Virus record (IMG/VR): IMGVR_UViG_2713896898_000008
Span: 1-31,078 of that record
Direction: 5' to 3' (one strand)
DNA: 31,078 nucleotides
Source of the DNA: a virus
Taxonomy: Duplodnaviria; Heunggongvirae; Uroviricota; Caudoviricetes
Position 1 is the stretch's first letter. The number at the start of each line of letters is the position of its first letter. The notes beneath the pieces were generated by a model that saw only the letters and a program-made list of their open reading frames with translations, was not told the origin of the DNA and ran no database searches. Below are positions 3,129-26,770 of the stretch, one piece after another. Both the position numbers and the translations under genes were made by a program.

Positions 3129-3151
3129 TAACAGGAGAAGGAGAAAACCAA

Positions 3152-3944: not shown

Positions 3945-3953
3945 GGAGAATAA

Positions 3954-4223: not shown

Positions 4224-4320
4224 CAACAGATCGGGCAATACATATGGCAAATGCATTTATGGCGATATTCATCGTAACAATGGCGTCCAGTTTTTATAAT
4301 CCACATAAAAAGAGGGAAAA

Positions 4321-4704: not shown

Positions 4705-4719
4705 TAAAATGATGGGTGT

Positions 4720-4965: not shown

Positions 4966-5264
4966 TGGAAGAAGATATTAGCAATGCAATGGAACAACTT
5001 TTAGATCTGACTATCTCACTACAAACAAGAATAAATCAAGCCTATTCAGATTTATGCGATTACACGCTCTCTCAATGCGTTATTAGCTTAATGAAGGTGA
5101 ATGTAAGCCTTGACGATTTTATCTCTCTGGTGAGCGTATCAGAGGACGATGCAAAACAGTGTAATCAAATCATCACAGACATCGCCACCACGTTAAAGGT
5201 TGCAAGTGAAGAGATTCAGCAATTAGTAGATGATTTAGCAAAAAGTGCTATTTTCTCTAAATGA
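4965..5264 (+). CDS. hypothetical acidic protein (99 aa)
   Basis: ORF translationally coupled to upstream gene. Confidence 0.4.
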   Translation: MEEDISNAMEQLLDLTISLQTRINQAYSDLCDYTLSQCVISLMKVNVSLDDFISLVSVSEDDAKQCNQIITDIATTLKVASEEIQQLVDDLAKSAIFSK

Positions 5265-6248
5265 TAATGAAAATTATTTGCATTTATAATGATTTTGTTA
5301 TATAATAATTTTAGGGGTAGATAAAAAGATTTTAGTTGGTGTTAATCCTTCTACTGTCATAAATCCCTGCATATGGAAGGTGATAGCCTCAAAGGTTGAG
5401 TGGCATTAACCTCTAACAAATATTACCTTCCATCTCTCAAGAAGTTTTAGAATAATCATAACTCCCTCTTTGATTGTTGATTGTTTCTACGTTGTGTTGA
5501 TGAATGTTGTTAGGCATTGTGCTTAATTTTGATAAAAGCGGGTAGGTGTTATCTCCTTGCCCTTCCCGCTCTTATTTTTCATCTATGCTTATCCTAAAGC
5601 TCCTTATTTTGTCAGAAAACATTAAAGAGCCTTACACTGATAGTTATATTTTATAACTATTTACTAACATCATTAAACTATTATTTAATGACAGAAGTTA
5701 GTAACAGAATAATCTATTAAGTTGTTGTCAAAAACAATCATCTGCATAGCGTTAGCCGCAAGCAGAGAGAGTTTAGCTAAGAATGGTGCAATAAACTTTG
5801 GAAATATTGATAGCAAAACGGGTTTTATAGAATGCGGATCTATAAGCTTTGGTTGTAAAAACGATTTTCTGAAACGGTAGATTACTGTTGGTGTAGTTAA
5901 TCATTATTAAAAATTTAATCTGTGAGTAGATTGGAATAGTGATTCCTTAAAATCTGACTGGTGCATCCACACCATGAAAGATAGCGGTTGGCCACCGCGC
6001 CCCGAATAGATATTCCTGATTGATTCCGCATGTTTTCCTAAGAGCATGTTTTCAGGAGTATCTATTCACCCTTTAAGCATATCATCAAGTATATTTAAAA
6101 AGTGTATTTGCTGATATGTTTAATCCTCTTATAGTTTAACTTATCAATTATGTAATTGCCCGCACGTTAAAGCCCCTTTGCTGGTCAGAATTAACCTCTT
6201 ACGGCATTGGGGCTTTTTATTTGTCTGGCACTAACAGGAACATTATTT

Positions 6249-6446
6249 ATGAAACAAGAAATGATTATCAGCAAAGACGGGGAAACGATGATTGTTAGTG
6301 ATGAAAACCTCATTAAGGTTGCCGCACTGTTGGGAGTTACTCCCGAAAGTCTTCGTTCTACCACTGCTCAATTATTTAAATCGGCTGATGCGGTTAGTCT
6401 TGCTGATGCCCTTAAATCTAAAATTAAACAACTGAAAGGAAAATAA
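6249..6446 (+). CDS. hypothetical small protein (ORF-track 6207..6446; internal ATG 6249 preferred)
   Basis: first gene of a tight five-gene plus-strand operon. Confidence 0.35.
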   Translation: MKQEMIISKDGETMIVSDENLIKVAALLGVTPESLRSTTAQLFKSADAVSLADALKSKIKQLKGK

Positions 6447-6450
6447 TCTT

Positions 6451-6834
6451 ATGGCTAACCCATATGGAAAATTAAAAGCAGTGAATGCGGATAACTCCCG
6501 TTCACGCTGTAAGGTAGTAGCTTACGCTGCTGATCCAGTGCTGCAAGATCGCCTCGTCAAACTGGCTTCACCTCTCACTGACGATCTTATTGTCGGGGCT
6601 TTGCTGAAAGCCGATGGCACCAAAGCAACAACCGCATCTGATATTGCTCACGTAGTAGTTGAACCGGCTTATGAAGGACAGGAAAGCGTAGTGGTTGCAC
6701 ATCCTACTTTCGTTATTCTGGCTGAAGATGGGATTGAATTTAACAGCATGGAAAAGGCAAGTGTTATTGCAAAACTGCAATCTCTCGGCTTTGTAATTGC
6801 TGGTTATGAAGAACTTGCGATCCCTACGACTTAA
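6451..6834 (+). CDS. hypothetical protein (127 aa), possibly virion-associated
   Basis: 4-bp spacing from upstream gene; SD aaaggaaaa; sits immediately before a capsid-like 343-aa gene. Confidence 0.45.
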   Translation: MANPYGKLKAVNADNSRSRCKVVAYAADPVLQDRLVKLASPLTDDLIVGALLKADGTKATTASDIAHVVVEPAYEGQESVVVAHPTFVILAEDGIEFNSMEKASVIAKLQSLGFVIAGYEELAIPTT

Positions 6835-6848
6835 CAAGGAAAATAATA

Positions 6849-7880
6849 ATGAATGATTTATCAACATATTTTGGCGTTAATACTGCGGTAGTAACTCCAT
6901 TTGCTTATGAGAATGCACTTAATACCCTGATTACTAATCTCGATCTGTTCGATGTGCAATATCATACAGAAAACAGCATTCTTCTTACCGACCTGATTGA
7001 TCAGTTTGTGCAGGTAGCTGGGGAAACCTCGCCTTACGCTCAAAGCGACTGGAACGCCTCTAAACGTCAGGAATGGTCAAACAAACTTTTCCAGATGAAA
7101 CACGTCGGCAGTATTAACGCTGTTACTTCTCGTGACCTGGAACAATACAGCCGCCAATATCCAAACCGTTCTGATGCTATGCTGGTAGCGGTTAATGATT
7201 TCTCTGAGGCTCATTACCGTTCACACGCAAACCGTGTTGAAGTGGATCTGATTACCGCGCTGCTGGGCCTGAAAGTTGAATCTGAATATGCCGGACAAGG
7301 TGATCTCGACTTCCTCGACGGTCAGGCTAAAACCACGGTACCCGCTATCGACTTTGCATCGACTACTGTTAACCCGTTCCTTGCTATTCGTAAAGCGGTG
7401 CGCTTACAGAGTGAAAAGCTGGGGTCTGGTCTTGCTGCAAAGCGAACTGGTGTAATTATCTTTGCTGCTGGCACTGCTGCTGATGGTTTGTCATCTAACC
7501 CGCTGATCAGTGACATGGTGAAATATGCAGGCGATGCGAGTGCTACGGCCCTGTTTACCCGTATGGTTGATTCTAACCCAGCCTATGACTCTTTCCAGAT
7601 TGGTGGGATCACTGTTATTGATGTGTCAATGTTTCCTGAGATTGTTGCTCACATCGGAGAGAACGGTTTCGCAATTGTTCCGGTAATGGATAAAGCGGCA
7701 CAGTGTTACCAGCTTCATAGCGGCGTTGGTGTGCGTCATGCTGAGTTAGGTCAAGATGCCGTGTTGCATCACCAATATCTAATCAAGGATGAATTCCAAT
7801 TCCCATCTGTGGTTACTGAGACATCTTATCTGCCAGTAAACAACATTCCGCAAGCTATCATCTTCGGATCTGCTGCGTAA
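6849..7880 (+). CDS. hypothetical protein (343 aa), composition reminiscent of a major capsid/coat protein
   Basis: SD aaggaaaa upstream; Ala/Gly/Ser/Thr/Val-rich with no TM segments or enzymatic motifs; functional assignment is inference only. Confidence 0.5.
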   Translation: MNDLSTYFGVNTAVVTPFAYENALNTLITNLDLFDVQYHTENSILLTDLIDQFVQVAGETSPYAQSDWNASKRQEWSNKLFQMKHVGSINAVTSRDLEQYSRQYPNRSDAMLVAVNDFSEAHYRSHANRVEVDLITALLGLKVESEYAGQGDLDFLDGQAKTTVPAIDFASTTVNPFLAIRKAVRLQSEKLGSGLAAKRTGVIIFAAGTAADGLSSNPLISDMVKYAGDASATALFTRMVDSNPAYDSFQIGGITVIDVSMFPEIVAHIGENGFAIVPVMDKAAQCYQLHSGVGVRHAELGQDAVLHHQYLIKDEFQFPSVVTETSYLPVNNIPQAIIFGSAA

Positions 7881-8031
7881 TAAAGCGTTAATAGACGATT
7901 CCCCATCGGGGCAATAAGGGTAAAGGGATTAACTAACCTGTAGGCGCAAATACAGTAACGAATCTCTTTGCCCTTTTTGTTTTTCTACTGTCTACAAACC
8001 CAAATAAAAATATATATGTGAGAGAAAACCA

Positions 8032-8229
8032 ATGAATACAGAAAACCCACAATCCTTTATTCTTAAGGCTGTAAAAGAACTGGCAGCTATTAGCGAGGAA
8101 TCAGTTATAAACACATCGGCGCTTTGCCGCCTTTTAGAAATTGATGCAAATAATGTGCGCCAGCGTGTCTTTCAGACTGGGTGCAGCACTTTCGAAGCAA
8201 TTCAATACTATTGCTCTAAAAAACAATAA
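8032..8229 (+). CDS. hypothetical small protein (65 aa)
   Basis: ORF within operon. Confidence 0.35.
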   Translation: MNTENPQSFILKAVKELAAISEESVINTSALCRLLEIDANNVRQRVFQTGCSTFEAIQYYCSKKQ

Positions 8230-8263
8230 TAAACAACAATCATAATACAGGGAAACAATTAGC

Positions 8264-10105
8264 ATGTTAGAACTTAACGTCAGCCGCTTATCAAACGTTG
8301 TCACCTTCCAGGTTGATCGACCATCATTAGAGAAAGCAAAAGCAGAAGTAGAAAAACTTCGTAAACAAATGGCGGCGGTGAAAGATATAGAATTGCGTGT
8401 TAAGACACATAAACAATCAACTTCTAAAGCAAAAAAAGACGTAGACGATATTGCTAAAAAGCAAGCACAGGCAGATAAAGCCAATGCTAAAGCACAATTA
8501 GCCGCTCAACGTGTAGTTGCAAGAGAACAAAAAGCCCTGGCAGCACGCAAAGAGAAGGCAGACTTAAAACTGTTAGACGTTGGATCAAGCATTAGTGCAT
8601 TGCACCGCCTTTCTGTAGCGGAACAATATAAAGCTATTGCACAGGCTAGAGAAATTGCCCTCCAATATGAAAGAGGAGCTATTAGTCTGGCACGTATGAA
8701 TAGCCAAATGAAACGCCTACAACAGCAACAACGTAAGATTAATGGCAATCGTAACGCTCACGCTAAAGCCTATGCACCTGTTAAGGGTAGCGGGAGTATT
8801 GGCGGCGGTGCTGCGGCTGTTATGCTGGGTGGCTTAGGCGCTGGCGCTACGTATATGGCTATGAGCAAAGCCTCTGAATTTGTTACTAACAGCTTTGCGA
8901 ATGCTGAAACGCTGGGTGAATTGTATAGCCGTGCGAAGCTGGGCGGTGTAGACGTTAACCAGATGAACAATATTGAGCAATGGGCCTACAAAAACGGCGT
9001 TGATTCAATGATGGGGGATCAAGGTAAACGTAAGTATCTCGATCAGATGAAAGATGTGCGTGAGCGTGCAACCAAAAGCTATGATGAGGCTGAATATGTA
9101 GTCGATAAAAAAACAGGCAAAGGTGAATGGAAGGGCGGCGATAGCGGCATCAATACTTTAATGAATGAAGGATTCTTAACTAAAAAGGATCTAAAAGACT
9201 TTGCTGATAATCCGGCTGGTCTGGTTAGTAAAGCAGTTCAGGGAATGGTGAAGAAAGGCTATTCAGATGCACAAATCGGTAGTCGTCTGGAAGATCTGGC
9301 TGATGATTTGATGCTCACCTCTAAATACTGGACACGCTCCGCTAAAGAAGTGGAACAATCAGCACGAGAACAACGAGAATCAGGGCGCTGGGTAACACAG
9401 GCACAACAGGAAAGCGTTATTAAATTCCGTGAACTGAATAATGCACTTAGTGGGCTTTCTGACTCACAAGGGATCGCCTTTGTTGATGGCTTTATGAAAT
9501 CTCTTGATCCGAAAGTGATTGAAGAGTTTAAAAAGAGCATGGTTGCAATGCTGCCAATGTTTACCAAATTAGGCGAGGCTATCGGCGGATTGGTTAACGC
9601 CGTAATGAAAACAATCAACTGGCTGATGAAAAACGACGAGAAGACGGAAGCTATTCAGAAGAATTTAGGGGATGCACCGCCACTATCTAACGAAGGAATG
9701 AAGCAGAATCTTTCTAATCTCACTCCTGATCAATATAAAGGCGCTGGCACCGGAACAACTAAGCCAGATAACAGCAATTCCCTGGTTAACACTATTAAAA
9801 GCTGGTTTATGCCAGAAGAAACGGTAGGTGGGGCGCAGGCTGTAAATCAATACAGTCTCGAAGGACAAAACATTGCAAATCTGAAACAGAGTGCAGCACA
9901 ACAAGCTTTCAAGGCTCCTTCTTACACCTTTGCACCTGTTATTAACTTCAATCCAGAATTACAAGTAAATGCAGAAGTGCCGCTAACTATCGAATCAGAC
10001 ACCGGACGATTGAGCGAATTTATCGACTTCAAATCAAAGGCATCCTCCGCTGAGTTTAGCAAGCTATTAACGCTGGGTGTTATGTCAGGCGGGTCAACCT
10101 ATTAA
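8264..10105 (+). CDS. hypothetical 613-aa protein with long N-terminal coiled coil and Gly-rich hydrophobic segment (tape-measure / ejection / TolA-like architecture)
   Basis: residues ~20-180 are Lys/Ala/Glu/Gln-rich heptad-like; GSGSIGGGAAAVMLGGLGAGATYMAMS hydrophobic stretch; function inferred from architecture only. Confidence 0.5.
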   Translation: MLELNVSRLSNVVTFQVDRPSLEKAKAEVEKLRKQMAAVKDIELRVKTHKQSTSKAKKDVDDIAKKQAQADKANAKAQLAAQRVVAREQKALAARKEKADLKLLDVGSSISALHRLSVAEQYKAIAQAREIALQYERGAISLARMNSQMKRLQQQQRKINGNRNAHAKAYAPVKGSGSIGGGAAAVMLGGLGAGATYMAMSKASEFVTNSFANAETLGELYSRAKLGGVDVNQMNNIEQWAYKNGVDSMMGDQGKRKYLDQMKDVRERATKSYDEAEYVVDKKTGKGEWKGGDSGINTLMNEGFLTKKDLKDFADNPAGLVSKAVQGMVKKGYSDAQIGSRLEDLADDLMLTSKYWTRSAKEVEQSAREQRESGRWVTQAQQESVIKFRELNNALSGLSDSQGIAFVDGFMKSLDPKVIEEFKKSMVAMLPMFTKLGEAIGGLVNAVMKTINWLMKNDEKTEAIQKNLGDAPPLSNEGMKQNLSNLTPDQYKGAGTGTTKPDNSNSLVNTIKSWFMPEETVGGAQAVNQYSLEGQNIANLKQSAAQQAFKAPSYTFAPVINFNPELQVNAEVPLTIESDTGRLSEFIDFKSKASSAEFSKLLTLGVMSGGSTY

Positions 10106-10152
10106 TCATCACTGTGGGGCTGTTTAGCCCCCTTAAATAAGGATTACAAATT

Positions 10153-10830
10153 ATGGCAATGGGTCCGTTAACCATTGGTCGCCCGACTGAGGCGAAAATC
10201 AACAGCACAAGCAACGATAGCAACGGTAGAACAACCAAAGGGGGTAACGGCTTTGCGATCATTACCTCTAATCTCGGCAGTGGTGCAAATGCTGCTTACA
10301 ATGACTACCAGGCATTATCATTTGATAGCGTGGAATCGACGAAAGTTAGCAGAAATGCGGACGTTACAAGCTATGCCGTCGAATCAGGATCAGAAGTTAG
10401 TGATCATGTTCAAATACGGAATAACAAGTTCACATTACAAGGGCGTATCTCTGAAACCGTATTGAAGCTCAATCCTGATATGATTAAGAATGCTGGAATT
10501 AACGGCAATCGACGTATGCTTATGCTTGAATACCTAAATCAGTTGATGGACAGTCGCCAACCTTTCCTACTTGTCACTGAGTTAAAAAATTATGACAACG
10601 TTGTGTTAGTTGGCATGTCTTACGAAGAAGAAGCAAGCGAAAGCCTATTGTTTACTCTTGATTTTGAGCAAATCCGTCTTGTCTCTAAAGCAACTACAAG
10701 CGCAATTGCGGTAAAAACAGCACCAAATAAATCTGTAGGAGGCCAGGTTAAAATGCAGGTAAATACAACAGAACAGAAAAATCAAAAAAGCCCAGGGCAA
10801 GACGTTGTAACGCCAGTATTTAAACAATAG
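10153..10830 (+). CDS. hypothetical protein (225 aa)
   Basis: last gene of operon; followed by hairpin 10872-10903. Confidence 0.45.
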   Translation: MAMGPLTIGRPTEAKINSTSNDSNGRTTKGGNGFAIITSNLGSGANAAYNDYQALSFDSVESTKVSRNADVTSYAVESGSEVSDHVQIRNNKFTLQGRISETVLKLNPDMIKNAGINGNRRMLMLEYLNQLMDSRQPFLLVTELKNYDNVVLVGMSYEEEASESLLFTLDFEQIRLVSKATTSAIAVKTAPNKSVGGQVKMQVNTTEQKNQKSPGQDVVTPVFKQ

Positions 10831-10871
10831 CCTTAAACGCCTATGAAACGCTCTGTAACGAGATAATCATA

Positions 10872-10903
10872 AAAGAGGCATCAGTCTATATTGAAGCCTC
10901 TTT
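10872..10903. terminator. bidirectional stem-loop between convergent genes
   Basis: AAAGAGGC...GCCTCTTT stem; T-rich tract on both strands (TTTATTA on plus, TTTTATGATTAT on minus). Confidence 0.5.
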
Positions 10904-10910
10904 ATTACGT

Positions 10911-12188
10911 CTATAGCGTTGTTTTACGCCTTAAATTTGATTTTTTATTGATTGATAAGCCTTTCTCTATTTCAGGGTAGCGTAAAAGCTCAATATATTT
11001 TTTAAGCTCTATTGGAGAAGCTGCATTTTTGCTATATGTGCGGAATGTTTCTGTATTGCCGCGTGTATGGCCCAGGAGAAGGGCGATCCTGTCTTCTGGA
11101 ATTTGATTTCGATCAAGAAGCTGTGCTACTCCGTGTCTCAGAGAATGAAACACTTTCCTTTCTGTTCCCTTTTCCCCTAAAGCCTTTCGTTTAGCTCTTG
11201 TAAATCGTTGTGTATGCCACGTAGAGCGTTTACCGTCAGCACGTTCTGTAATGCTGGCGTGATAGAACAAAAAGCCATTGTGAGGCTTTTCACGCAGCGA
11301 CAACACCAACGGAGTGATAAGGTTATGCACAGGCACAACACGTGCCGCAGCTTTCGTCTTTCCCTGTGTGATTTCAAAACACAGCACACCTTCGATCTCT
11401 TTCACATCGTCTATTGTGAGACTTGCTATCTCATTGATCCGCATACCTGTATATAAACCGATAAGACACAAAGCCGTCATTTCTTTGTTTTCTGCTGAAT
11501 TACCGGAAAATACTTGCAACACCTGCAATAGCTCTTTGTTAGAAAATGCCTCGTAGCTCTCTCTACTTTGTGCCACATCAAGCCTATGCCCTCGCCAGGG
11601 GGAGAGCGCCCTTTCTGGCGCATCGTGGTAACGTGATGAAGCTAATTCCCATAGCTGGGCCATTGGACTGATATAATTTGCAATTGATTGTTGTGAAAGA
11701 GTTTTTTGCATGTGTTCAATCCAGCCTGTAACAGTGGTGCGGCTTACATCTTGCAATGCAATATCAGGCTTTTTACGGTAGGAGAGAAACATCTCTACCG
11801 CTTTTCTTGCCTTAGCTAAAGTGGCTGGCTTCTTCTTCGTGCTGTTAATTGTCAGGTAGATTTCAAGAATTTTAAGCAATGACGGACACGAAGACGCTGT
11901 ATCTTGCACTCTGGTAGCTGTTTTGGCGTATTTAGCCTTACTGCGTAACAGTTCCAGCGTGTTTTCTATTGTGCTGTTTACAGGGGCAACACTCTCCCGT
12001 AAGCAATGGTATTCATCTGCAATCTGATCACGCTTTCTACGTGCAACACGAAGATTACTTGTGTGTAGACTTCTGACAAACGTCCTTTTTCCTTCAAAAA
12101 AGGGCTGCATATACACAGGCAGCGTGATCCTTAAATAGTAGTTACCGTAAGAATCACAGATTAAGTATTGGTTAGGCTTGTATCTCAT
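10911..12188 (-). CDS. tyrosine recombinase / phage-type integrase (second integrase; ORF-track 10911..12275 begins at TTG)
   Basis: C-terminal catalytic signature HSLRHGVAQ ... LLGHT ... TYSK (R-H-R-Y family); preferred start ATG 12188 has SD GGAG 6 nt upstream. Confidence 0.8.
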   Translation of the reverse strand: MRYKPNQYLICDSYGNYYLRITLPVYMQPFFEGKRTFVRSLHTSNLRVARRKRDQIADEYHCLRESVAPVNSTIENTLELLRSKAKYAKTATRVQDTASSCPSLLKILEIYLTINSTKKKPATLAKARKAVEMFLSYRKKPDIALQDVSRTTVTGWIEHMQKTLSQQSIANYISPMAQLWELASSRYHDAPERALSPWRGHRLDVAQSRESYEAFSNKELLQVLQVFSGNSAENKEMTALCLIGLYTGMRINEIASLTIDDVKEIEGVLCFEITQGKTKAAARVVPVHNLITPLVLSLREKPHNGFLFYHASITERADGKRSTWHTQRFTRAKRKALGEKGTERKVFHSLRHGVAQLLDRNQIPEDRIALLLGHTRGNTETFRTYSKNAASPIELKKYIELLRYPEIEKGLSINKKSNLRRKTTL

Positions 12189-12363
12189 AAAATCTCCGGC
12201 TAAAGTGTCGGAGCGTTTGTAATGTGAAAATTGATTGTGACGCATAGAAAATGATGATTTTTCTATAAGATTCAATCAATTAGTAATGGTCGTAGGTGAT
12301 GGCATTAACACGAGATTAATCGAGTGTTTTACTCCTATTATCGGCACCATTTAAATCAATAAG

Positions 12364-13524
12364 TTATCTCACATTTAAGTAAACCACGTTTTCCTCTTGT
12401 GCCGTATTTGTGCCATTGCGACTTATAATCGCATCGATTTTGCTCGCGTGCTCAGTGAGATGCCCGGCTGAAAGGTGGGCGTATCTTTGAACCATTTCGA
12501 GAGTTTCCCATCCTCCCATCTCTTTAAGTGCAAGAAGAGAGACACCGGACTGAACCAGCCAGCTTGCCCAGGTATGCCTCAGGTCATGGAAGCGGAAGTT
12601 GCTAATGCCTGCCCGCTTTAACGCTCCCTTCCATGCCTTGTTGCTGTCGGTTCTCATCTTCCTTACCGCTGCTGTTTTTGTTCCGTCGTTTCGGTAGGCA
12701 GGTTTGGTGTGGACAAATACCCATCTCTTATGGAGCCCCTGCTGTTTTCTTAATATCTGGCATGCGGTTTCGTTAAGAGGAACTCCGATCGCATTGCCGG
12801 CTTTTGTTTCATCAGGGGGCATCCATGCCATTTTCTTATCCAGATCGACCTGTGACCACTCAAGGTCTGTAACGTTGGAGCGGCGAAGACCTGTAGTGAT
12901 TGCGAACATGACCACAGGGAAGAAATGAGGAGCAATTTCTGCAAACAGGCGCTTCGATTCCTCCTCTGTAAGCCATCTGATTCGTCCATTCTTAACGCGT
13001 GGTGTTGATATTTTTGGCGCCCTGTCAAGCCATCCCCATTCAACAGCCATATTGAGAATAGCGCGAAGTATTGCCAGATGCCGCATCTTCGTTCCTTTGC
13101 TTGCCAGCTTTGGTTTATACTCCGGCACTGGCTTGCCAAGCCGCAAACACCTGTCCCGGCTCATCTCCCAGTTCAGGCGATGGCGGCGGTTTTCCATCCC
13201 GTCTACCGCCTCCATTATTTTTTCTGTTGTTATGTCAGAGAGAATGGTTTCTCTGAAGTGCAACATCCAGAACGATATAATGCTCTTGTCATCATCAATG
13301 GACTTCTTATCCGATTTCTCACGCAGCCACCGTATGCAGGCTTCCTTGAATAGCTTTTTCGGTGATTCCCCGAGATTTTTTACTCTCCACGCTTCTGCTT
13401 TCAGACGATCGTGAAGTTCTTGCGCTTGCCTTTTGTCCGATGTTTCAAGAGAGCGTCTAACTCTTGATCCATCTGGCGCGACGAAATCGCAGTGCCACGT
13501 GCCACCGCGTAGTTTGATTGACAT
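12364..13524 (-). CDS. int: lambdoid phage integrase (tyrosine recombinase)
   Basis: 386 aa; catalytic motifs TGLRRSN, FHDLRHTWAS, VQRYAHL; strong SD AGGAGG; immediately downstream of an excisionase and Red operon as in lambda, but sequence is not lambda Int. Confidence 0.9.
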   Translation of the reverse strand: MSIKLRGGTWHCDFVAPDGSRVRRSLETSDKRQAQELHDRLKAEAWRVKNLGESPKKLFKEACIRWLREKSDKKSIDDDKSIISFWMLHFRETILSDITTEKIMEAVDGMENRRHRLNWEMSRDRCLRLGKPVPEYKPKLASKGTKMRHLAILRAILNMAVEWGWLDRAPKISTPRVKNGRIRWLTEEESKRLFAEIAPHFFPVVMFAITTGLRRSNVTDLEWSQVDLDKKMAWMPPDETKAGNAIGVPLNETACQILRKQQGLHKRWVFVHTKPAYRNDGTKTAAVRKMRTDSNKAWKGALKRAGISNFRFHDLRHTWASWLVQSGVSLLALKEMGGWETLEMVQRYAHLSAGHLTEHASKIDAIISRNGTNTAQEENVVYLNVR

Positions 13525-17987: not shown

Positions 17988-18920
17988 CTATTCGATTTTT
18001 TTAACCATGTAGTTACGTCGTGATGTTCCTAATCTTTCATTGTGAATCTCAGAAACGCTTACTACGAGCGATATTCGTTCACCAACTTTATATTTACTTT
18101 GAATTTCTCCTAACATATCAATCGGATAAGAAGCCTTTATTTTTCCAAGCTCGCTTGCAATCTCCAATTTTCCGTACATGGATAAAATAGCAAGTTCGCC
18201 TGATATATGCTCATCCGGTAGCTGAATGACCTTCGTTAAAGCTAAGCGAGCATTCAGTTTTTTTATATCTTCTGAAGAAATTGACACTTGTCTGGTACCA
18301 TCACTTAAAGGTCCAATCCAAGTAAGATCAAAGTTAAGACTATATTTTTCGCACTCATTTATGATGTTTTTTAGGTTAGCTGTTGATTGCGAACCAATTT
18401 CGGCAATTTTAGCCGTGAATGTTTCTTCATCAATGGATGAGAGTAGTGCAAAAATCTCCTTAACAGCATGACTGGATACTGTTTCGATGAGCTCGCAAGA
18501 ACCAGTAGAAAAAGTAACACCTAACTTCGTCGAACCTGGACGCAAGTCTGCCAATCTCATGTCTAATGATTTTTTAACATCAATCGGCACACGACTAGAA
18601 TCTTTCCCAGATCCAAGTCGGTAAACTGCTTTCTGTACAAGGGATGCGAGATTACCTGAAATTACAGATAGAATATCTAACGGAATAGACCCGAAATCGA
18701 CCAAAACACCTTTTAATCTCAACTCCATGAAATCACGTAAAGGATGTTGGTTATCGATTGCACGTTGTCTCTCTCGGAGATCGCTCAGATGGGAGTCAAG
18801 TGATCTAAATATAATGTCATCAGCAAATGATCTCCCCTTATTTTGAGCAAGCAGATCCACATCGCGTTGAATGAACGCAATTCGCTCCTTGAGGGAGTTG
18901 AATGTTTTTTCTTCGCTCAT
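17988..18920 (-). CDS. hypothetical 310-aa protein, partner of nucleotidyltransferase-like gene (rex-position module)
   Basis: start ATG overlaps stop of upstream gene (ATGA); no recognised motifs; located between cI and pL where lambda carries rexA/rexB. Confidence 0.6.
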   Translation of the reverse strand: MSEEKTFNSLKERIAFIQRDVDLLAQNKGRSFADDIIFRSLDSHLSDLRERQRAIDNQHPLRDFMELRLKGVLVDFGSIPLDILSVISGNLASLVQKAVYRLGSGKDSSRVPIDVKKSLDMRLADLRPGSTKLGVTFSTGSCELIETVSSHAVKEIFALLSSIDEETFTAKIAEIGSQSTANLKNIINECEKYSLNFDLTWIGPLSDGTRQVSISSEDIKKLNARLALTKVIQLPDEHISGELAILSMYGKLEIASELGKIKASYPIDMLGEIQSKYKVGERISLVVSVSEIHNERLGTSRRNYMVKKIE

Positions 18921-19390
18921 AACATTACCCTCACGAGGCCTTTAGGATTCTCCTTCCGATCAAAACCAAACCACCCTCTCCAGTAACTTCGCCTTTCACT
19001 ATAATCGATTTCTGGATGATTTTCAGGCAGCAAAAGAACGTCAATGCTGTAGTTTTCTTTAATAAAATCTCTATTTAACAATGAGCTAACCAATGGCATC
19101 AGCGTGTTTGGCAAAGAGTTTAGGGCCAAATAATCGACGACCACGAGTATATCTATGTCATCAGGTTCAGGTTTCTCTGTAGTGAATGAACCATCGATCC
19201 ACACTTCAGAGAAACATAGACACTGCTGATTAACAAGTTTAAATTGCTCAATAAGCTGTATAAAATTACAGTATAGCATACTTCTTCTAACGGATTTTGG
19301 GAAGGTGTCGACACAAAGAGACTTGATGCCATCACTATCCATATCATGAAATCCTGCTGTAAGAAGAGGTGGGAAGCTAGGCTTTTCCAT
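18917..19390 (-). CDS. nucleotidyltransferase-fold protein (Pol-beta/MNT-like), 157 aa
   Basis: motif WIDGSFTTEKPEPDDIDILVVVD fits the G-S-x(9-13)-D-x-D nucleotidyltransferase signature; SD AGGA 7 nt upstream; directly downstream of cI. Confidence 0.55.
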   Translation of the reverse strand: MEKPSFPPLLTAGFHDMDSDGIKSLCVDTFPKSVRRSMLYCNFIQLIEQFKLVNQQCLCFSEVWIDGSFTTEKPEPDDIDILVVVDYLALNSLPNTLMPLVSSLLNRDFIKENYSIDVLLLPENHPEIDYSERRSYWRGWFGFDRKENPKGLVRVML

Positions 19391-19471: not shown

Positions 19472-20164
19472 TTAACCATGCTTCCTGTACGTCTGCGGCA
19501 TGCTCCCAATAACCTTACCGAAGATGAACACCCGGTTCATCTCGTCTTTCTCGATCGGGTCCCACGGTGAGTAGCTCTTGTTATCAGAGATAACCAGTAG
19601 CTTATCTTTCATCATTTGCAGGCGCTTTACATGGGCTGTGTCGTCGTACAGAAACGCATAGATACCATCACCGTCGAAAGATTTAACCGTGATATCAACG
19701 AACAGAAGATCACCTGGTTCGATCGTTCCTGACATGCTGTCACCGCGTACGTTAATGATGCGGATATTTTCTGCCTTCCTACCATCGAACATGTGACGAG
19801 CATCGTCAAACGAGTACTCAACCGAGCGTAGAACTTCTACAAACTCACGGTTGATGACACCCGGCCCGGCACTGACTTCTATATCAAGAACGTCAATCTT
19901 GAAGTATTTGGAATGGTTGACAGCAGGCTTCCCTGATTGTTGACCGTCATTTCTCATCGGGCCTATGCCTGATGAGAGCCACTCTGTTCGAACACCCAAT
20001 GCATTAGCTATTTCAACAATTTTTGTTGAGCCGCGCGCGTTGCCGCTTGTCAGTCTCCAGATTGTGGGTTGAGCTACGCCAGACGCCTTTGCAAGAGCGC
20101 CTTGAGACATTCCAGATTGTTCCATCGCTAGGTTTAAGCGATCAGCAAGAGTTTCTTTTTTCAT
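19472..20164 (-). CDS. cI: CI-like prophage repressor (HTH plus S24 LexA-like autopeptidase domain)
   Basis: N-terminal XRE-type HTH (LADRLNLAMEQSGMSQGALAKASGVAQPTIWRL); C-terminal GDSM...K peptidase S24 motif; ORF-track 19472..20200 trimmed to ATG 20164, which lies just downstream of a TTGACC/TATAAA promoter (leaderless, as for lambda pRM). Confidence 0.85.
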   Translation of the reverse strand: MKKETLADRLNLAMEQSGMSQGALAKASGVAQPTIWRLTSGNARGSTKIVEIANALGVRTEWLSSGIGPMRNDGQQSGKPAVNHSKYFKIDVLDIEVSAGPGVINREFVEVLRSVEYSFDDARHMFDGRKAENIRIINVRGDSMSGTIEPGDLLFVDITVKSFDGDGIYAFLYDDTAHVKRLQMMKDKLLVISDNKSYSPWDPIEKDEMNRVFIFGKVIGSMPQTYRKHG

Positions 20165-20274
20165 AAGTTTTAATTTATACGCTTGCGTATTGATGGTCAA
20201 AACACGTTTTGCTATTGCTTAGGTTAATACGTATTGCTATTATTCCTTCATTGCAATACCAATAGGAATTGATA
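20165..20274. promoter_or_regulatory. divergent pRM/pR-like promoters and operator repeats (immunity switch)
   Basis: minus strand -35 TTGACC (20200..20195) and -10 TATAAA (20179..20174); plus strand -35 TTGCTT (20215-20220), 17-nt spacer, -10 TATTAT (20238-20243); repeated TTGCTATTG-type motifs shared with the pL region. Confidence 0.6.
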
Positions 20275-22786: not shown

Positions 22787-23094
22787 CGGGCAAAGAGGCA
22801 ATTATTCATTACCTGGGGACTCATAAGAGCTTCTGTGCGCAGGACGTTGCCGCGGTAACAGGCGCAACAGTAACCAGCATAAATCAGGCAGCGGCTAAAA
22901 TGGCGCGGGCAGGAATCCTGGTCATTGATGGTAAGGTCTGGCGAACGGTGTATTACCGGTTCGCTACCAGAGAAGAACGGGAAGGAAAGGTGAGCACGAA
23001 CCTGATTTTTAAGGAGTGTCGCCAGAGTGTCGCGATGAAACGAGTGTTGGCTGTGTATGGAAAAGTAAACGCACTATCATTGATGACAACCTAA
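22783..23094 (+). CDS. ren: Ren (Rex exclusion protein)
   Basis: MTGKEAIIHYLGTH.SFCA.DVAA.TGATVTSINQAAAKMARAG matches lambda Ren. Confidence 0.85.
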   Translation: MTGKEAIIHYLGTHKSFCAQDVAAVTGATVTSINQAAAKMARAGILVIDGKVWRTVYYRFATREEREGKVSTNLIFKECRQSVAMKRVLAVYGKVNALSLMTT

Positions 23095-23173
23095 ATATTT
23101 ACAAAATGGAATTATCAATGGTCATATAATTACATGCCCCGGCACATAATGCTTGGGGTAAATATATTGAATG

Positions 23174-23560
23174 TTAATAGTTTATTCTTTCTGATATATA
23201 CCCGTCGAGATCTGAAAGAATTTCGCCAGTTTCAATATCTATTGCGGTTAATATTCTATCAATATAGAAACTTCGCATGCTTTTTCTTAAATGGCACCGT
23301 GCATATATTTTTTTCTTTGAAGGGTCGTATTTTATGATAGATATATGGCGATTAGTGATTTCGCCCTTCGCATCCTGATAAGTTATATCTAACTCAATGA
23401 TATCGGTACTATAACTATAGTTAGTTTGCGTTTTTTTATGTGTGGGTGCCTTTATTTTTTTAGTAGTACGAACTGGTTGCGAAGGTGGATTTTGGGATTT
23501 GGAGCTTTTAAAAACGAAAGCGGCAATAATCAGGATAGCTATTAATACTATAAACCACAT
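23174..23560 (-). CDS. membrane-anchored WYL-like domain protein (moron)
   Basis: N-terminal TM helix (WFIVLIAILIIAAFVF); C-terminal KIYARCHLRKSMRSFYIDRI resembles the WYL-domain core; start at ATG 23560 with SD AGGTG; AT-rich and antisense to flanking phage genes. Confidence 0.5.
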   Translation of the reverse strand: MWFIVLIAILIIAAFVFKSSKSQNPPSQPVRTTKKIKAPTHKKTQTNYSYSTDIIELDITYQDAKGEITNRHISIIKYDPSKKKIYARCHLRKSMRSFYIDRILTAIDIETGEILSDLDGYISERINY

Positions 23561-23922
23561 ATTTAACACCTAAAAACTGTTTAAAGTCAGTATGATAGAG
23601 CGATTTCTGGAACCTGTTGAGTGATGGTGATCACATTATGAGAATGAATGACTGCGGTTGACCGCCACCATTCACTGGGGCTAATTCTTTGTGTTGCCGC
23701 AAAATCGGCACACGGGATTGGCGTCCCGGAACACTACTCAACGCATACCGCGTTAAGCAGTTTTTTATGCGCTAAGCGCGGCTACGCCCAAATTATGGTG
23801 GGCTGTGTGAGGGCTTCTTCGGAAGCGCCGGGTTTGTGTAGCCGGTTACGCCAACCTTGCACAGTTCACTACCTGTCGATTGGCGTCGTTGGTGGTGATT
23901 GTTAACCTGATGAGGTGATACT

Positions 23923-24240
23923 ATGACTACTCAATTAGCATTCCACAAAACGACGTTTACCCCGATTTGCCACAACAACAGAATTTGGCTTACTGCCACT
24001 GAAGTTGGTTTAGCAATGGAATATGCGGACGATAACGCAGCTAAGCGCATTTACTCTCGTCACTCAGATGAATTTACAGACATGATGATAGGAGGGGTCA
24101 AAGTGACCACCCTCGTGGAATGCAGGCGTCTCGAGTATTTAGCCTTCGGGGAGACCAACGGATCGTCATGTTCGCACGAACTCCTGTGGTCAAAGAGTTC
24201 CCCCGCTGGGTTCTGAATATTCTCGATCGAGAAGTTCAAT
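23923..24240 (+). pseudogene. Bro-N-like antirepressor-domain gene with an apparent -1 frameshift at a C-run (~24110-24112)
   Basis: frame 1 reads ...DEFTDMMIGGVKVTT then degenerates; the adjacent frame continues PRGMQASRVFSLRG...MFARTPVVKEFPRWVLNILDREVQ*, a typical Bro-N C-terminus. Confidence 0.45.
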
Positions 24241-24482
24241 AATCCCCAATCACAGAACAATTCACTGATAACGAACTTCTTTTTATACTGTTGATAAATG
24301 TTTTTAGGCTGCTTATACACTATATTCTTTTGTGTCTGTGAATTTATGTGGCAGCAAATTGCTATGGGGTATTTGTTGTATATTTAAGAAAATGTGATCT
24401 CGATTGTCTTTTTAAATAAAAATTAAACAAAATTATAACTCGCCGCTAAGGTTTATAAAAGTATGCATTAGCAGGTGTCAAC

Positions 24483-26009
24483 ATGAAAAAAGCCATAGCA
24501 TATATGCGATTTTCATCACCAAGCCAGATGTCTGGTGATTCATTAAACCGTCAGAGAAGGCTTATTACTGAATGGCTAAAGGTAAATAGTGATTATTACC
24601 TTGATACCGTAACGTATGAAGATTTGGGGTTAAGCGCATTCAATGGAAAGCATGCACAGTCAGGAGCTTTTTCGGAATTTTTAGATGCCATAGAGCATGG
24701 CTGTATATTGCCAGGAACTACATTGCTAGTTGAAAGTCTGGACAGACTTTCAAGAGAAAAAGTCGGTGAGGCGATTGAACGCCTGAAACTGATTTTAAAT
24801 CATGGTATTGATGTTATAACTCTGTGCGATAATACAACTTATAATATTGATTCTTTAAATGAACCATATTCATTAATAAAAGCAATACTTATAGCTCAAA
24901 GAGCCAATGAAGAAAGCGAGATAAAGTCAAGCCGAGTTAAATTATCATGGAAGAAAAAAAGACAAGATGCAATGGAGTCAGGTACGATTATGACGGCATC
25001 TTGCCCGAGATGGCTTTCATTAGATGAAAAAAGAACGTCGTTTGTCTTAGACCCTGACAGGGTGAAAACGATTGAGCTGATTTTTAAACTAAGGATGGAA
25101 AGACGCTCTTTGAATGCAATTGCTAAGTATTTAAATGATCATGCTATAAAGAATTTCTCAGGAAAAGAAAGTGCATGGGGGCCTTCTGTAATTGAAAAAT
25201 TATTAGCTAATAAAGCGCTGATAGGTATATGCGTACCTTCATATCGTGCAAGAGGGAAGGGAATAATTGAAATCGCTGACTATTATCCCAGAGTGATATC
25301 AGATGATTTGTTTTACTCTGTGCAGGAAATTCGGCTGGCACCTTTTGGTATTAGCAATAGTAGCAAGAATCCTATGTTGATAAATCTACTGCGAACAGTT
25401 ATGAAGTGCGGCGCTTGTGGTAATACTATGATTGTTAATGCAGTATCAGGAAGCTTGCACGGCTATTATGTTTGCCCGATGAGAAGATTGCATCGATGTA
25501 ACAGGCCATCAATAAGAAGAGATTTGGTTGACTATAATATAGTTAATGAATTGCTTTTTAATTGTAGTAAAATCCAACCAGTTGAAAATAAGAAAGATGT
25601 TAATGAAACTCTGGAATTGAAAGTTATTGAACTTCAGATGAAAATTAATAATTTAATTGTTGCATTATCTGTTGCACCTGAAGTTACCGCTATAGCAGAA
25701 AAAATTAGAGTATTAGATAAAGAATTGCGAAGGGTTTCTATATCATTAAAAACTTTGAAGAGTAAAGGTGTAAGTACACTTGGTGATTTCCATGACATTG
25801 ATTTAACCAGTAAAAATGGGCGGGAATTATGTCGTACACTTGCTTATAAAACATTCGAAAAAATTATAATAAACACAGATAACAAAACATGTGATATCTA
25901 TTTTATGAATGGTATTGTTTTTAAACACTATCCTTTGATGAAAATAATATCTGCCCAACAGGCGATAAGTACTCTCAGGTATATGATTGATGGGGAAGTT
26001 TATTTTTAA
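24483..26009 (+). CDS. large serine recombinase (resolvase-domain plus recombinase and zinc-ribbon regions)
   Basis: 508 aa; N-terminal AIAYMRFSSPSQ...SLNRQ catalytic-serine resolvase motif; Cys cluster CGACGN...C; AT-rich codon usage unlike the flanking nin genes. Confidence 0.8.
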   Translation: MKKAIAYMRFSSPSQMSGDSLNRQRRLITEWLKVNSDYYLDTVTYEDLGLSAFNGKHAQSGAFSEFLDAIEHGCILPGTTLLVESLDRLSREKVGEAIERLKLILNHGIDVITLCDNTTYNIDSLNEPYSLIKAILIAQRANEESEIKSSRVKLSWKKKRQDAMESGTIMTASCPRWLSLDEKRTSFVLDPDRVKTIELIFKLRMERRSLNAIAKYLNDHAIKNFSGKESAWGPSVIEKLLANKALIGICVPSYRARGKGIIEIADYYPRVISDDLFYSVQEIRLAPFGISNSSKNPMLINLLRTVMKCGACGNTMIVNAVSGSLHGYYVCPMRRLHRCNRPSIRRDLVDYNIVNELLFNCSKIQPVENKKDVNETLELKVIELQMKINNLIVALSVAPEVTAIAEKIRVLDKELRRVSISLKTLKSKGVSTLGDFHDIDLTSKNGRELCRTLAYKTFEKIIINTDNKTCDIYFMNGIVFKHYPLMKIISAQQAISTLRYMIDGEVYF

Positions 26010-26116
26010 ATAATTAACTCTGTTTCGGAATAAATATTAAGTTAGAGAATGCTGCCACAGCTATTTAGAGTAAATTGTATATTGTTTGTTGGCTGCACAT
26101 ATGATTTAGATAAAAA

Positions 26117-26138
26117 GTAACCCACCGAAGTGGGTTAC
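26117..26138 (-). terminator. stem-loop terminator downstream of the lipoprotein gene
   Basis: GTAACCCAC-CGAA-GTGGGTTAC; minus strand followed by TTTTTATCTA. Confidence 0.65.
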
Positions 26139-26143
26139 TATCA

Positions 26144-26500
26144 TCATCCTGCGTTTTCGCATCCAGGAAGGCTGCGGTCAATAATGAGATTCCCTTCAAC
26201 ACGTAAACCAATTTTACCAACCAGGAATGATTGGTTAAGTTGTGTTACAACAACGTCAGTCAGACCCACAGCGCAACGGTCTTGCTCGATTGCACGATCG
26301 GCAGCAGTTTTTACATTGGGAATACCTGTTGGGAAGATGATAACAGGATAGCTATCTTCTGCAGTTACGCGTTTTCCTTTGTAAAATTTACCACCATTTA
26401 AATTATAGTTTTTTGTACTGGCTACAGTAAGGTCTGCTACACGAACGGTACATCCGGTCAGCAAAAGGGTTGCCAATGCGACAGCCAACATTTTTTTCAT
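26144..26500 (-). CDS. lipoprotein (signal peptide with lipobox LLTGC), function unknown
   Basis: MKKMLAVALATLLLTGC signal/lipobox; 118 aa; moron-like position in the nin region. Confidence 0.6.
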   Translation of the reverse strand: MKKMLAVALATLLLTGCTVRVADLTVASTKNYNLNGGKFYKGKRVTAEDSYPVIIFPTGIPNVKTAADRAIEQDRCAVGLTDVVVTQLNQSFLVGKIGLRVEGNLIIDRSLPGCENAG

Positions 26501-26770
26501 TATTTTTTCCTTTTGTTACACTAAAAAATCCGGCGGATTCTATCATGTGGTTCTTATCTGATCACATCATTTACCGATAAAATTCTTTTGATTTTCAATT
26601 ATCAATAAGAGAAAATTCTTCTGCTGTCGGCCTGAACACCCGGCGGTGGGGTTGCGCTAAACGGGGACGTTTATGCGCACATACAATCCAAACTCTCTTC
26701 TCCCTTCACAGATGCAGAAATGCACCTGCAATTCTTTGCATCTAGCGTTTGACCTCTGCGGAGGTGAAGC

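What the first reader, a model, noticed from the sequence alone, without database searches (positions are those of the whole stretch)
23095..23640. Orphan membrane-anchored WYL-like domain protein as an AT-rich moron between ren and the nin region
Seen in sequence: minus-strand gene 23174..23560 in an AT-rich island, antisense to the flanking replication and nin genes. Predicted product has one N-terminal transmembrane helix and a C-terminal segment (KIYARCHLRKSMRSFYIDRI) resembling the conserved core of WYL domains. Established knowledge: WYL domains are ligand-sensing modules commonly found in regulators of defense systems. Inference: a small TM-tethered WYL protein without an attached effector is unusual and may be a sensor or exclusion factor.
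Basis: partly seen in the sequence, partly recalled or inferred. Interest (0 to 1): 0.6.

Follow-up and report, generated by a model that had tools for sequence, protein, structure and literature searches.

The report
Membrane-anchored WYL protein in prophage hotspot
A small gene inserted backwards into a lambda-like prophage encodes a membrane anchor carrying a nucleic-acid-sensing WYL domain; it belongs to a large family nobody has studied, which temperate phages keep in the spots where they carry genes against rival phages.

Summary
A 128-aa gene lies on the minus strand at 23174-23560, in a 589-bp island of 33% GC between ren and a c4-RNA/rha module.

- **Structure.** The product has one N-terminal membrane helix, a basic disordered linker and a C-terminal five-strand barrel.
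- **Not an orphan architecture.** At least 600 clusters (50% identity) share it. About three quarters of the best 150 are membrane-anchored, and some carry two WYL copies or a C-terminal TerB domain.
- **Context.** Relatives are single-gene cargo in temperate phages, several directly downstream of the lysogeny repressor. In a sister lambdoid phage this slot holds SNIPE (PD-lambda-1), a membrane-bound nuclease that cuts entering phage DNA.

Best reading, inferred and untested: a lysogen-expressed exclusion or defence factor whose cytoplasmic WYL domain binds invader nucleic acid at the membrane. I found no experimental work on this family.

The parts
23062..23650 (.). AT-rich cargo cassette (589 bp, 33.3% GC) between the end of ren and the conserved c4-RNA/rha flank
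   Evidence: Homology to phages PhiR26_1 and IdasGreatGrand stops at 23061 (23028 for IdasGreatGrand) and resumes at 23651 (23656). The same slot holds SNIPE/PD-lambda-1, Vch_cass14, DUF6864 or other genes in other prophages.
23174..23560 (-). Coding sequence of the 128-aa membrane-anchored WYL protein (stop codon 23174-23176)
   Evidence: ORF. Homologues. Identical 128-aa protein annotated 'hypothetical protein' in E. albertii and E. coli.
23504..23557 (-). Residues 2-19: single transmembrane helix, predicted N-out/C-in
   Evidence: Helix 2-19 in the AlphaFold2 model. There are no charged residues before the helix and 8 K/R with 0 D/E in the 35 residues after it. Across the family, 101 of 111 membrane-anchored members have more K+R on the domain side (mean 3.8 vs 0.44).
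23399..23503 (-). Residues 20-54: basic, low-complexity linker modelled without secondary structure
   Evidence: pLDDT 64-71 and no secondary structure. Composition.
23222..23398 (-). Residues 55-113: WYL-type Sm-like five-strand barrel, including the family-specific D-x-x-T-G-E motif (108-113)
   Evidence: Strands 55-62, 68-79, 84-89, 94-99 and 103-108, with pLDDT 96-98. Pfam WYL matches residues 57-105. PDB profile hits; structural hits. Conserved Y61, R71, C89, R92, R96, F98, R102, D108, T111, G112 and E113.
23183..23209 (-). Residues 118-126: short C-terminal helix after the barrel
23567..23571 (-). Shine-Dalgarno sequence AGGTG, 6 nt upstream of the ATG
   Evidence: Sequence read.
23592..23620 (-). 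Promoter-like site TCAACA-17 nt-TATCAT upstream of the gene (weak evidence)
   Evidence: Consensus scan: 9 of 12 matches. The number of sites in the region is not above the shuffle expectation (3 found, 2.9 expected).

Best explanation
**What it is (shown).** This is a real single-gene cargo cassette in a lambdoid prophage. It encodes a bitopic inner-membrane protein. A 17-residue anchor leaves almost nothing in the periplasm. A basic linker of about 35 residues follows, and a WYL-type Sm-like barrel faces the cytoplasm. The protein has no HTH, no WCX dimerisation domain and no enzymatic effector.

**What it does (inferred).** It is probably expressed from its own promoter in the lysogen, when the converging pR early transcript is repressed. 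It probably serves the prophage in conflict with incoming mobile DNA, as an exclusion or defence factor.

**How (most likely, inferred).** The conserved arginine/cysteine groove of the WYL domain binds single-stranded nucleic acid exposed by an invader at or near its point of entry or early replication. Because the domain is held at the membrane, binding sequesters or immobilises the invading genome there. That would be a direct, non-suicidal block. It would tell self from non-self by location, as SNIPE does in the same slot of a sister phage, but without a nuclease.
For: **Identity**
- Makarova et al. describe a WYL signature of four basic residues plus a cysteine lining a groove (PMC4012209). 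It is present here (R71, R92, R96, R102, C89) and 76-98% conserved over 170 domain copies.
- WYL domains of CapW bind ssDNA through equivalent arginines (PMC11662680).

**Topology**
- Positive-inside bias places the domain in the cytoplasm in 101 of 111 anchored relatives, whatever the number of helices.

**Cargo and lysogeny context**
- The cassette replaces SNIPE/PD-lambda-1, which is also on the minus strand, in PhiR26_1. It replaces other cargo in other E. coli prophages.
- SNIPE is an N-out single-pass membrane protein that cuts phage DNA during injection (PMC13190303).
- Relatives lie directly downstream of, and co-oriented with, the lysogeny repressor in two unrelated phage groups (L005/L006; L020-L025).
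- Other relatives lie next to XRE immunity genes in phage phiAP1, antisense between Q and the lysis genes in another lambdoid prophage, antisense in a Salmonella prophage, and between tail genes of a P2-like prophage.
- No conserved partner gene recurs, so the gene acts as a self-contained module.
- The identical protein persists in prophages that differ in Q type and neighbouring cargo.
Against: - No experiment exists. Function and ligand are inferred from domain family and position only.
- Sharing a hotspot with SNIPE does not imply a shared mechanism.
- Incoming phage DNA is double-stranded apart from cohesive ends, whereas characterised WYL domains prefer ssDNA or ssRNA with micromolar affinity.
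- Characterised WYL domains bind ligand as dimers helped by a WCX domain, which this protein lacks.
- Soluble 69-aa versions of the same domain occur in early or replication regions of lytic Autographiviridae phages. That points to a more general ssDNA-handling or counter-defence role for the domain.
- The promoter call is weak and no terminator was found.
- PADLOC holds no defence model matching the whole protein.
Confidence: 0.4

Rival explanations
1. Abortive-infection sensor-effector. The WYL domain binds a phage-derived nucleic acid or nucleotide. Ligand-driven clustering of the membrane helices then depolarises or permeabilises the inner membrane, killing or arresting the infected lysogen. 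This is how the membrane helix plus sensor effectors Cap15 (CBASS) and Cam1 and Csx23 (type III CRISPR) work.
For: - The architecture is the same: one to four membrane helices plus a small ligand-binding barrel with no enzyme.
- Sm-like WYL barrels were predicted to form multimeric assemblies, and tandem WYL copies occur in the family (PMC4012209).
- The prophage cargo positions fit equally well.
- That the named effectors work this way is from my own knowledge, not from a tool.
Against: - Those effectors depend on a dedicated signal synthase encoded next to them. No partner gene recurs here.
- The membrane helix is a featureless hydrophobic stretch, poorly conserved and variable in number. 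That fits an anchor better than a defined pore.
- No toxicity data exist.
Confidence: 0.2
2. A phage-own function. The protein would be a membrane tether or handler for the phage's own single-stranded replication or recombination intermediates. This is analogous to phi29 p16.7, a 130-aa protein with an N-terminal membrane helix and a C-terminal DNA-binding domain that organises membrane-associated replication.
For: - The gene sits next to the replication genes O and P.
- Size and layout resemble p16.7 (my own knowledge, not a tool result).
- Soluble copies of the domain lie beside primase and helicase genes in lytic Stenotrophomonas phages.
Against: - The gene is antisense to the early operon, AT-rich and replaceable by unrelated cargo.
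- It is absent from 5,426 complete E. coli genomes, although 3,631 of them match a query that spans its flanks.
- In other phages it is co-transcribed with the lysogeny repressor, which is off during lytic replication.
- Elsewhere it lies in tail or Q-lysis regions.
Confidence: 0.1
3. Counter-defence decoy. The prophage-encoded WYL domain soaks up the ssDNA or other ligand that host WYL repressors (CapW, BrxR) use to switch on CBASS, BREX and similar systems. This would protect the prophage at induction.
For: - CapW senses ssDNA and blocks lambda prophage induction through CBASS (PMC11662680).
- Small stand-alone WYL proteins are common in phages, including lytic ones.
Against: - A decoy has no obvious need for a membrane anchor, yet about 75% of the best 150 relatives have one.
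- Stoichiometric titration of ssDNA by a small membrane protein is implausible.
- Positions next to the lysogeny repressor suggest expression before induction, not at induction.
Confidence: 0.07
4. The WYL resemblance is a chance motif match, and the ORF is a spurious or unrelated small membrane protein.
For: The single sequence is below Pfam's gathering score (16.8 vs 21.8 bits). NCBIfam has no match.
Against: - 600 relatives at E <= 1e-3.
- 33 of 47 relatives hit PF13280, best 5.8e-17.
- Profile hit to PafBC at 4.4e-9.
- Confident model, with every top structural match a WYL protein.
- The WYL signature residues are conserved.
Confidence: 0.02

Closest known systems
wHTH-WYL-WCX transcription factors (CapW, BrxR, PafBC, DriD)
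   Same: Same WYL Sm-like barrel with a conserved arginine/cysteine groove. They are the best sequence-profile and structural matches. Their ligand is ssDNA (PMC11662680).
   Different: This protein has no HTH DNA-binding domain and no WCX dimerisation domain. A membrane helix takes the N-terminal position, so it cannot act as a transcription factor. It also carries a family-specific D-x-x-T-G-E motif and a short helix after the barrel.
SNIPE / PD-lambda-1 (membrane-bound GIY-YIG nuclease)
   Same: It occupies the same ren|rha slot on the same strand in the sister phage PhiR26_1. It has the same predicted topology: N-out single-pass anchor with a cytoplasmic nucleic-acid-interacting part (PMC13190303).
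   Different: There is no DUF4041 and no GIY-YIG nuclease, and no sequence similarity. The protein is 128 aa against about 500 aa.
TM-WYL-TerB proteins (the WYL-TerB fusion listed by Makarova et al. 2014, citing Anantharaman et al. 2012)
   Same: Same family by sequence: same WYL subtype with the D-x-x-T-G-E motif and the same N-terminal anchor.
   Different: The window protein stops about 15 residues after the barrel and has no TerB domain. In long members, 12 of 20 tails match PF05099.
Membrane helix plus sensor effectors of CBASS and type III CRISPR (Cap15, Cam1, Csx23)
   Same: Same design logic: membrane helices plus a small cytoplasmic ligand-binding domain and no enzyme (my own knowledge for those proteins; for this one).
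   Different: The sensor fold differs. Those proteins need a neighbouring signal synthase, and none is found here.
phi29 p16.7 (membrane-anchored DNA-binding replication organiser)
   Same: About 130 aa, with an N-terminal membrane helix and a C-terminal nucleic-acid-binding domain (my own knowledge).
   Different: The DNA-binding fold is unrelated. p16.7 is a conserved early gene of a lytic phage, not sporadic antisense cargo.

Membership tests
WYL domain superfamily (Pfam PF13280; refined definition of Makarova et al. 2014) | Sequence match to the Pfam WYL model at or above its gathering score | tested here: not met
   The window protein scores 16.8 bits (E 0.0068) against a cut-off of 21.8. 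33 of 47 aligned relatives match at E <= 0.01, best 5.8e-17. PADLOC WYL models match at 5e-9 and 2.1e-5. The single-sequence Pfam test fails, and membership rests on the profile, relatives and fold rows.
WYL domain superfamily (Pfam PF13280; refined definition of Makarova et al. 2014) | Profile-level homology to WYL domains of solved proteins | tested here: met
   The family profile A1 hits PafBC 6sj9 at 4.4e-9, the WYL-bearing AAA ATPase 8bnv at 1.6e-6, PafC 7p5x at 2.1e-5 and CapW 7tb5 at 4.8e-4. The alignments are motif-in-register.
WYL domain superfamily (Pfam PF13280; refined definition of Makarova et al. 2014) | Sm-like SH3 five-strand beta-barrel fold | tested here: met
WYL domain superfamily (Pfam PF13280; refined definition of Makarova et al. 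2014) | Four conserved basic residues plus a frequent cysteine predicted to line the ligand groove | tested here: met
   R71, R92, R96, R102 and C89 are present in the window protein. They are 97, 85, 97, 76 and 98% conserved over 170 domain copies. The definition is quoted from PMC4012209. That they line a groove in this protein was not measured.
WYL domain superfamily (Pfam PF13280; refined definition of Makarova et al. 2014) | Binding of a negatively charged ligand (ssDNA, ssRNA or nucleotide) | not testable with these tools
   Needs purified protein and binding assays.
wHTH-WYL-WCX transcriptional regulators (CapW/BrxR/PafBC/DriD class) | N-terminal winged-helix DNA-binding domain | tested here: not met
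   There is no HTH match in Pfam. Residues 2-19 form a membrane helix.
wHTH-WYL-WCX transcriptional regulators (CapW/BrxR/PafBC/DriD class) | C-terminal WCX dimerisation domain | tested here: not met
   Only about 15 residues follow the barrel, forming one short helix. There is no WCX match.
SNIPE / PD-lambda-1 | DUF4041 plus GIY-YIG nuclease domains behind an N-terminal anchor | tested here: not met
   There is no such match in Pfam or PADLOC. Only the anchor, topology and genomic slot are shared.
TM-WYL(-TerB) family defined here | WYL barrel with Y..D..G..T.R / A.C.LR...R.F..DR / D..TGE motifs, preceded by at least one membrane helix | tested here: met
   All motif residues are present. E-values to relatives are 7e-24 to 1e-10. 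A membrane helix precedes the domain in about three quarters of the best 150 representatives.
TM-WYL(-TerB) family defined here | C-terminal TerB domain (long subclass only) | tested here: not met
   The window protein ends at residue 128. TerB is found in 12 of 20 long-member tails, and the tail profile hits PDB TerB 2ou3 at 4.5e-5.
Signal-dependent membrane effectors (Cap15, Cam1, Csx23) | Adjacent cyclic-nucleotide or oligonucleotide synthase that supplies the activating ligand | tested here: not met
   No conserved neighbouring gene across nine independent contexts.

The most novel reading that the evidence does not exclude
The protein is a nuclease-free 'location-based' immune factor. A single-stranded-DNA reader is held at the inner face of the membrane. 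It captures the single-stranded parts of DNA as they enter the cell and blocks establishment without killing the host. Those single-stranded parts could be the 12-nt cohesive ends of lambdoid genomes, the transferred strand of conjugative plasmids, or ssDNA phage genomes. If so, a family of at least 600 clusters of TM-WYL(-TerB) proteins would be a widespread, previously unrecognised single-gene entry-exclusion system.
Probability: 0.15. Interest if true: 0.8.

Novelty: new variant of a known kind. Interest (0 to 1): 0.55.

Why it matters
WYL domains are so far understood as ligand-sensing switches bolted onto transcription factors, helicases or nucleases. This protein has the sensor with nothing attached except a membrane anchor. 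That layout recurs in hundreds of sequence clusters and in the lysogeny-expressed cargo positions of unrelated temperate phages.

If it protects lysogens, it would be one of the smallest single-gene defence or exclusion modules known. It would also add a second, nuclease-free example to the idea, just established for SNIPE, that bacteria can tell foreign DNA from their own by where it is rather than by what it says. The gene is 387 bp, so it is easy to test.

If instead it proves to be a replication tether or a decoy, it would still assign a first function to a large unannotated family ('hypothetical protein' in Escherichia, 'WYL domain-containing protein' in Salmonella).

Tried and rejected
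- Megablast of the cassette found nothing in 50,697 phage records or in 5,426 complete E. coli genomes. tblastn found nothing in plasmids. The gene is therefore rare in finished E. coli genomes. It was later found by exact look-up in E. albertii and draft E. coli assemblies.
- The word-indexed protein search found only the protein's own cluster, and little more with profiles. The exhaustive HMMER search was what revealed the family.
The single protein found nothing in genome contigs. A four-sequence alignment then worked.
- The AlphaFold database library was unavailable.
- The Anantharaman 2012 paper on Ter systems and the Brenes and Laub 2025 prophage-defence paper are not held.
- Literature searches for a membrane-anchored WYL protein in defence or exclusion found nothing relevant.

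**Analyses that gave no usable signal**
- Single-sequence AlphaFold2 gave a poor model (pLDDT 56). It was replaced by the alignment-based model.
- No intrinsic terminator was found downstream of the gene. The hairpin at 23095-23180 is not better than shuffles (z -1.07).
- No flanking repeats mark the cassette ends.
- A selection test on near-identical copies was uninformative, with only 1 substitution in the ORF per copy.

**Ideas rejected**
- A cleavable signal peptide: there is no charged n-region and no AXA-type cleavage site, and the positive charges follow the helix.
- The plus-strand ORFs overlapping the gene (for example 23134-23337): I did not search them, but they lie antisense to a coding frame that is well supported by homologues.
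- The 85-aa ORF at 23648-23905: it overlaps the C4 RNA match.

Full report
**1. What is in the sequence**

A minus-strand ORF runs from the ATG at 23560 to the stop at 23174-23176 and encodes 128 aa. An AGGTG Shine-Dalgarno sequence lies 6 nt upstream. The alternative GTG start at 23569 falls inside that Shine-Dalgarno sequence. Public records annotate the 128-aa form.

The gene sits in an AT-rich block. By alignment with the related phages PhiR26_1 and IdasGreatGrand, homology ends at 23061 (23028 for IdasGreatGrand) and resumes at 23651 (23656). This 589-bp block is 33.3% GC, against 51.6% for cII-O-P-ren and 49.4% for the right flank. The flanks are lambda-type cII, O, P and ren at 95-97% identity.

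The right neighbour is not the nin region itself. It is a C4-type antisense RNA (Rfam RF01695, 70 bits, 23791-23876) and a truncated rha/antirepressor gene. A ybcK-type serine recombinase segment follows, and then the nin genes.

A sigma-70-like site (TCAACA-17-TATCAT, 23620-23592) lies upstream of the gene. Such sites are no more frequent here than in shuffled sequence, and no terminator was found. Expression signals are therefore plausible but unproven.

**2. The protein**

- Residues 2-17 are entirely hydrophobic, and AlphaFold2 models residues 2-19 as a helix.
- Residues 20-54 are basic (8 K/R, no D/E) and modelled without secondary structure.
- Residues 55-108 form five strands at pLDDT 96-98.
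- A T-G-E turn (111-113) and a short helix (118-126) follow.

These features come from the alignment-based model (pLDDT 87.9) and from the composition analysis. The earlier single-sequence model was poor.

With one residue before the helix and all the positive charge after it, the positive-inside rule predicts N-out/C-in, which puts the barrel in the cytoplasm. The same bias holds in 101 of 111 anchored relatives, whether they have 1, 2, 3 or 4 helices (mean K+R 3.8 on the domain side against 0.44).

**3. Is it a WYL domain?**

Pfam WYL gives 16.8 bits (E 0.0068), below the gathering score of 21.8. NCBIfam gives nothing.

Every more sensitive test agrees with WYL:
- PADLOC's WYL models match at 5e-9 and 2e-5.
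- 33 of 47 aligned relatives match PF13280, the best at 5.8e-17.
- A profile of the family hits the WYL domains of PafBC (4.4e-9), a WYL-bearing AAA ATPase (1.6e-6), PafC (2e-5) and CapW (5e-4), with the motifs in register.
- Foldseek's top 15 PDB matches are all WYL proteins.

Makarova et al. redefined the domain by four basic residues and a cysteine lining a groove, not by the letters W-Y-L (PMC4012209). Here these are R71, R92, R96, R102 and C89, conserved at 76-98% over 170 domain copies. By motif register, the literal W-Y-L positions are K83-K84-I85 in this protein, so the name-giving residues are absent, as in many members.

By the same register, R102 is likely the counterpart of CapW R184/R200, which is needed for ssDNA binding. 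This equivalence is an inference from spacing, not a structural superposition.

**4. Not an orphan architecture**

An exhaustive HMMER search of 1.84 billion cluster representatives with residues 22-128 found 600 proteins at E <= 1e-3 and 22 at E <= 1e-10. The closest are 44-53% identical.

Of the best 150 representatives, about three quarters have at least one hydrophobic helix before the domain. Classes are anchor plus one WYL, anchor plus two WYL, and either of these followed by about 125 residues. That tail is a TerB domain: 12 of 20 tails match PF05099 (best 2.8e-9), and the tail profile hits the solved TerB 2ou3. A WYL-TerB fusion was listed in 2014.

The subfamily has its own mark outside the Pfam WYL model, a D-x-x-T-G-E motif after the last strand (86-96% conserved).

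Close copies of the window protein are annotated 'hypothetical protein' in Escherichia albertii and E. coli. A Salmonella relative is annotated 'WYL domain-containing protein'. I found no paper that studies a membrane-anchored WYL protein.

**5. Context**

The ren|rha slot is a cargo hotspot.
- In phage PhiR26_1 it holds PD-lambda-1 on the minus strand.
- Other E. coli prophages hold Vch_cass14 (minus strand), DUF6864 plus a hypothetical gene, or other small genes there.

PD-lambda-1 is now called SNIPE. It is an N-out single-pass inner-membrane protein whose cytoplasmic DUF4041 and GIY-YIG domains cut phage DNA during injection (PMC13190303).

The exact 128-aa protein occurs in many assemblies, always in this slot. 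The prophages carrying it differ in Q antiterminator type, in what follows rha, and in what follows cI.

More distant relatives are also single-gene cargo in mobile elements:

| Position of the relative | Element |
|---|---|
| Directly downstream of, and co-oriented with, an S24 CI-type repressor | L005, L006 |
| Directly downstream of an HTH_3 repressor, divergent from a primase module | six IMG/VR contigs, L020-L025 |
| Beside XRE regulators | phage phiAP1 |
| Antisense between Q/RusA and the methylase/lysis genes | another lambdoid prophage, L019 |
| Antisense near the integrase end | Salmonella prophage |
| Between tail genes S and the baseplate genes | P2-like prophage |
| Beside the replication gene | small Rep3 plasmid |

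No partner gene recurs. Soluble 69-aa copies of the domain occur beside primase genes in lytic Stenotrophomonas phages. Small WYL proteins are common among viral structure predictions.

**6. Mechanism**

Shown here:
- The gene is real.
- The protein has a membrane helix and a WYL barrel with the ligand-groove residues.
- The barrel is predicted to be cytoplasmic.
- The gene is sporadic, self-contained cargo in positions that temperate phages use for lysogen-expressed functions.

Inferred:
- It is expressed in the lysogen.
- It binds single-stranded nucleic acid.
- It acts against incoming DNA.

I commit to a lysogen-expressed exclusion or defence factor that binds invader nucleic acid at the membrane and blocks establishment directly (confidence 0.4).

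The main rival is an abortive mechanism, in which ligand-driven clustering of the helices damages the membrane, as in Cap15, Cam1 and Csx23 (0.2). Against it, there is no signal-generating partner and the helix looks like a featureless, variable anchor.

Lesser rivals:
- A phi29 p16.7-like tether for the phage's own replication (0.1). The antisense, replaceable, repressor-linked positions argue against it.
- A decoy against host WYL repressors (0.07). The membrane anchor argues against it.

Weak points of the favoured model:
- Entering phage DNA is mostly double-stranded.
- Known WYL domains bind as WCX-assisted dimers with micromolar affinity.
- Sharing a hotspot says nothing about mechanism.

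**7. Comparison, novelty and score**

The protein works most like a WYL sensor and sits where SNIPE sits. It is a member of neither the wHTH-WYL-WCX regulators (no HTH, no WCX) nor the SNIPE family (no DUF4041, no nuclease). It belongs to the WYL superfamily and, within it, to an uncharacterised membrane-anchored subfamily whose long form is the known WYL-TerB fusion.

I rate it a new variant of a known kind, with interest 0.55. The recurring lysogeny-linked positions make a defence or exclusion role a concrete hypothesis that can be tested cheaply.

Noticed in passing
window 23791-23876 (+): Rfam match to C4 antisense RNA (RF01695; 70 bits, E 7e-12), the P1/P7-type regulator of antirepressor expression. 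It lies just upstream of the rha/antirepressor-like ORF. The 85-aa ORF at 23648-23905 overlapping it is probably spurious.
   Followed up: partly
window 23923-24278 (+): The rha / P22 antirepressor-like gene is truncated. The ORF is only 97 aa (23923-24216). Homology to the intact 202-aa rha of PhiR26_1 ends at 24278, where an AT-rich segment begins.
   Followed up: partly
window 24279-26600: A 35% GC segment carries a 508-aa large serine recombinase (24483-26009; Resolvase, Recombinase and Zn_ribbon_recom domains). It is about 91% identical to the DLP12 ybcK region of many E. coli. A 118-aa lipoprotein gene lies on the opposite strand (26144-26500). Sister prophages with the identical TM-WYL gene have a 260-aa gene here instead.
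   Followed up: partly
window 17988-19390 (-): Two genes lie directly downstream of the CI-type repressor (19472-20200), in the position of lambda rexAB. They are a DUF6932 protein (157 aa) and a 310-aa protein with no Pfam match. Sister prophages carry SocA_Panacea plus a 127-aa gene, or a 126-aa gene, at the same place. This is a second cargo hotspot and a possible two-gene defence or toxin-antitoxin module.
   Followed up: no
window 10911-13524 (-): Two tyrosine integrase genes lie back to back (454 aa with DUF6538, and 386 aa), which suggests two integrated elements in tandem. Window 1-12300 is 100% identical to many E. coli chromosomes and is annotated there with a phage baseplate protein and recombinases.
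   Followed up: no
L012:2983-3192 (Stenotrophomonas phage Stm18, gene 014) and BFVD A0A868BZ36 (Xanthomonas phage): 69-aa soluble proteins consisting of only this WYL subtype, including the D-x-D-T-G-E motif, lie next to primase genes of lytic Autographiviridae. The domain therefore also has a role outside lysogeny.
   Followed up: partly
L019:7773-8240: A 155-aa relative (51% identical in the domain) sits antisense between the Q antiterminator/RusA genes and the methylase/holin/lysozyme genes of another lambdoid prophage. In Shiga-toxin phages this is the position of the stx genes. A Hok-like gene is nearby at 11006-11218.
   Followed up: partly
window 23562: Two metagenomic copies (L001, L002) differ at 23562, upstream of the ATG. 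This would change residue 3 (N to S) if the GTG at 23569 were the start. The protein from the ATG onward is identical, which weakly favours ATG as the start.
   Followed up: partly
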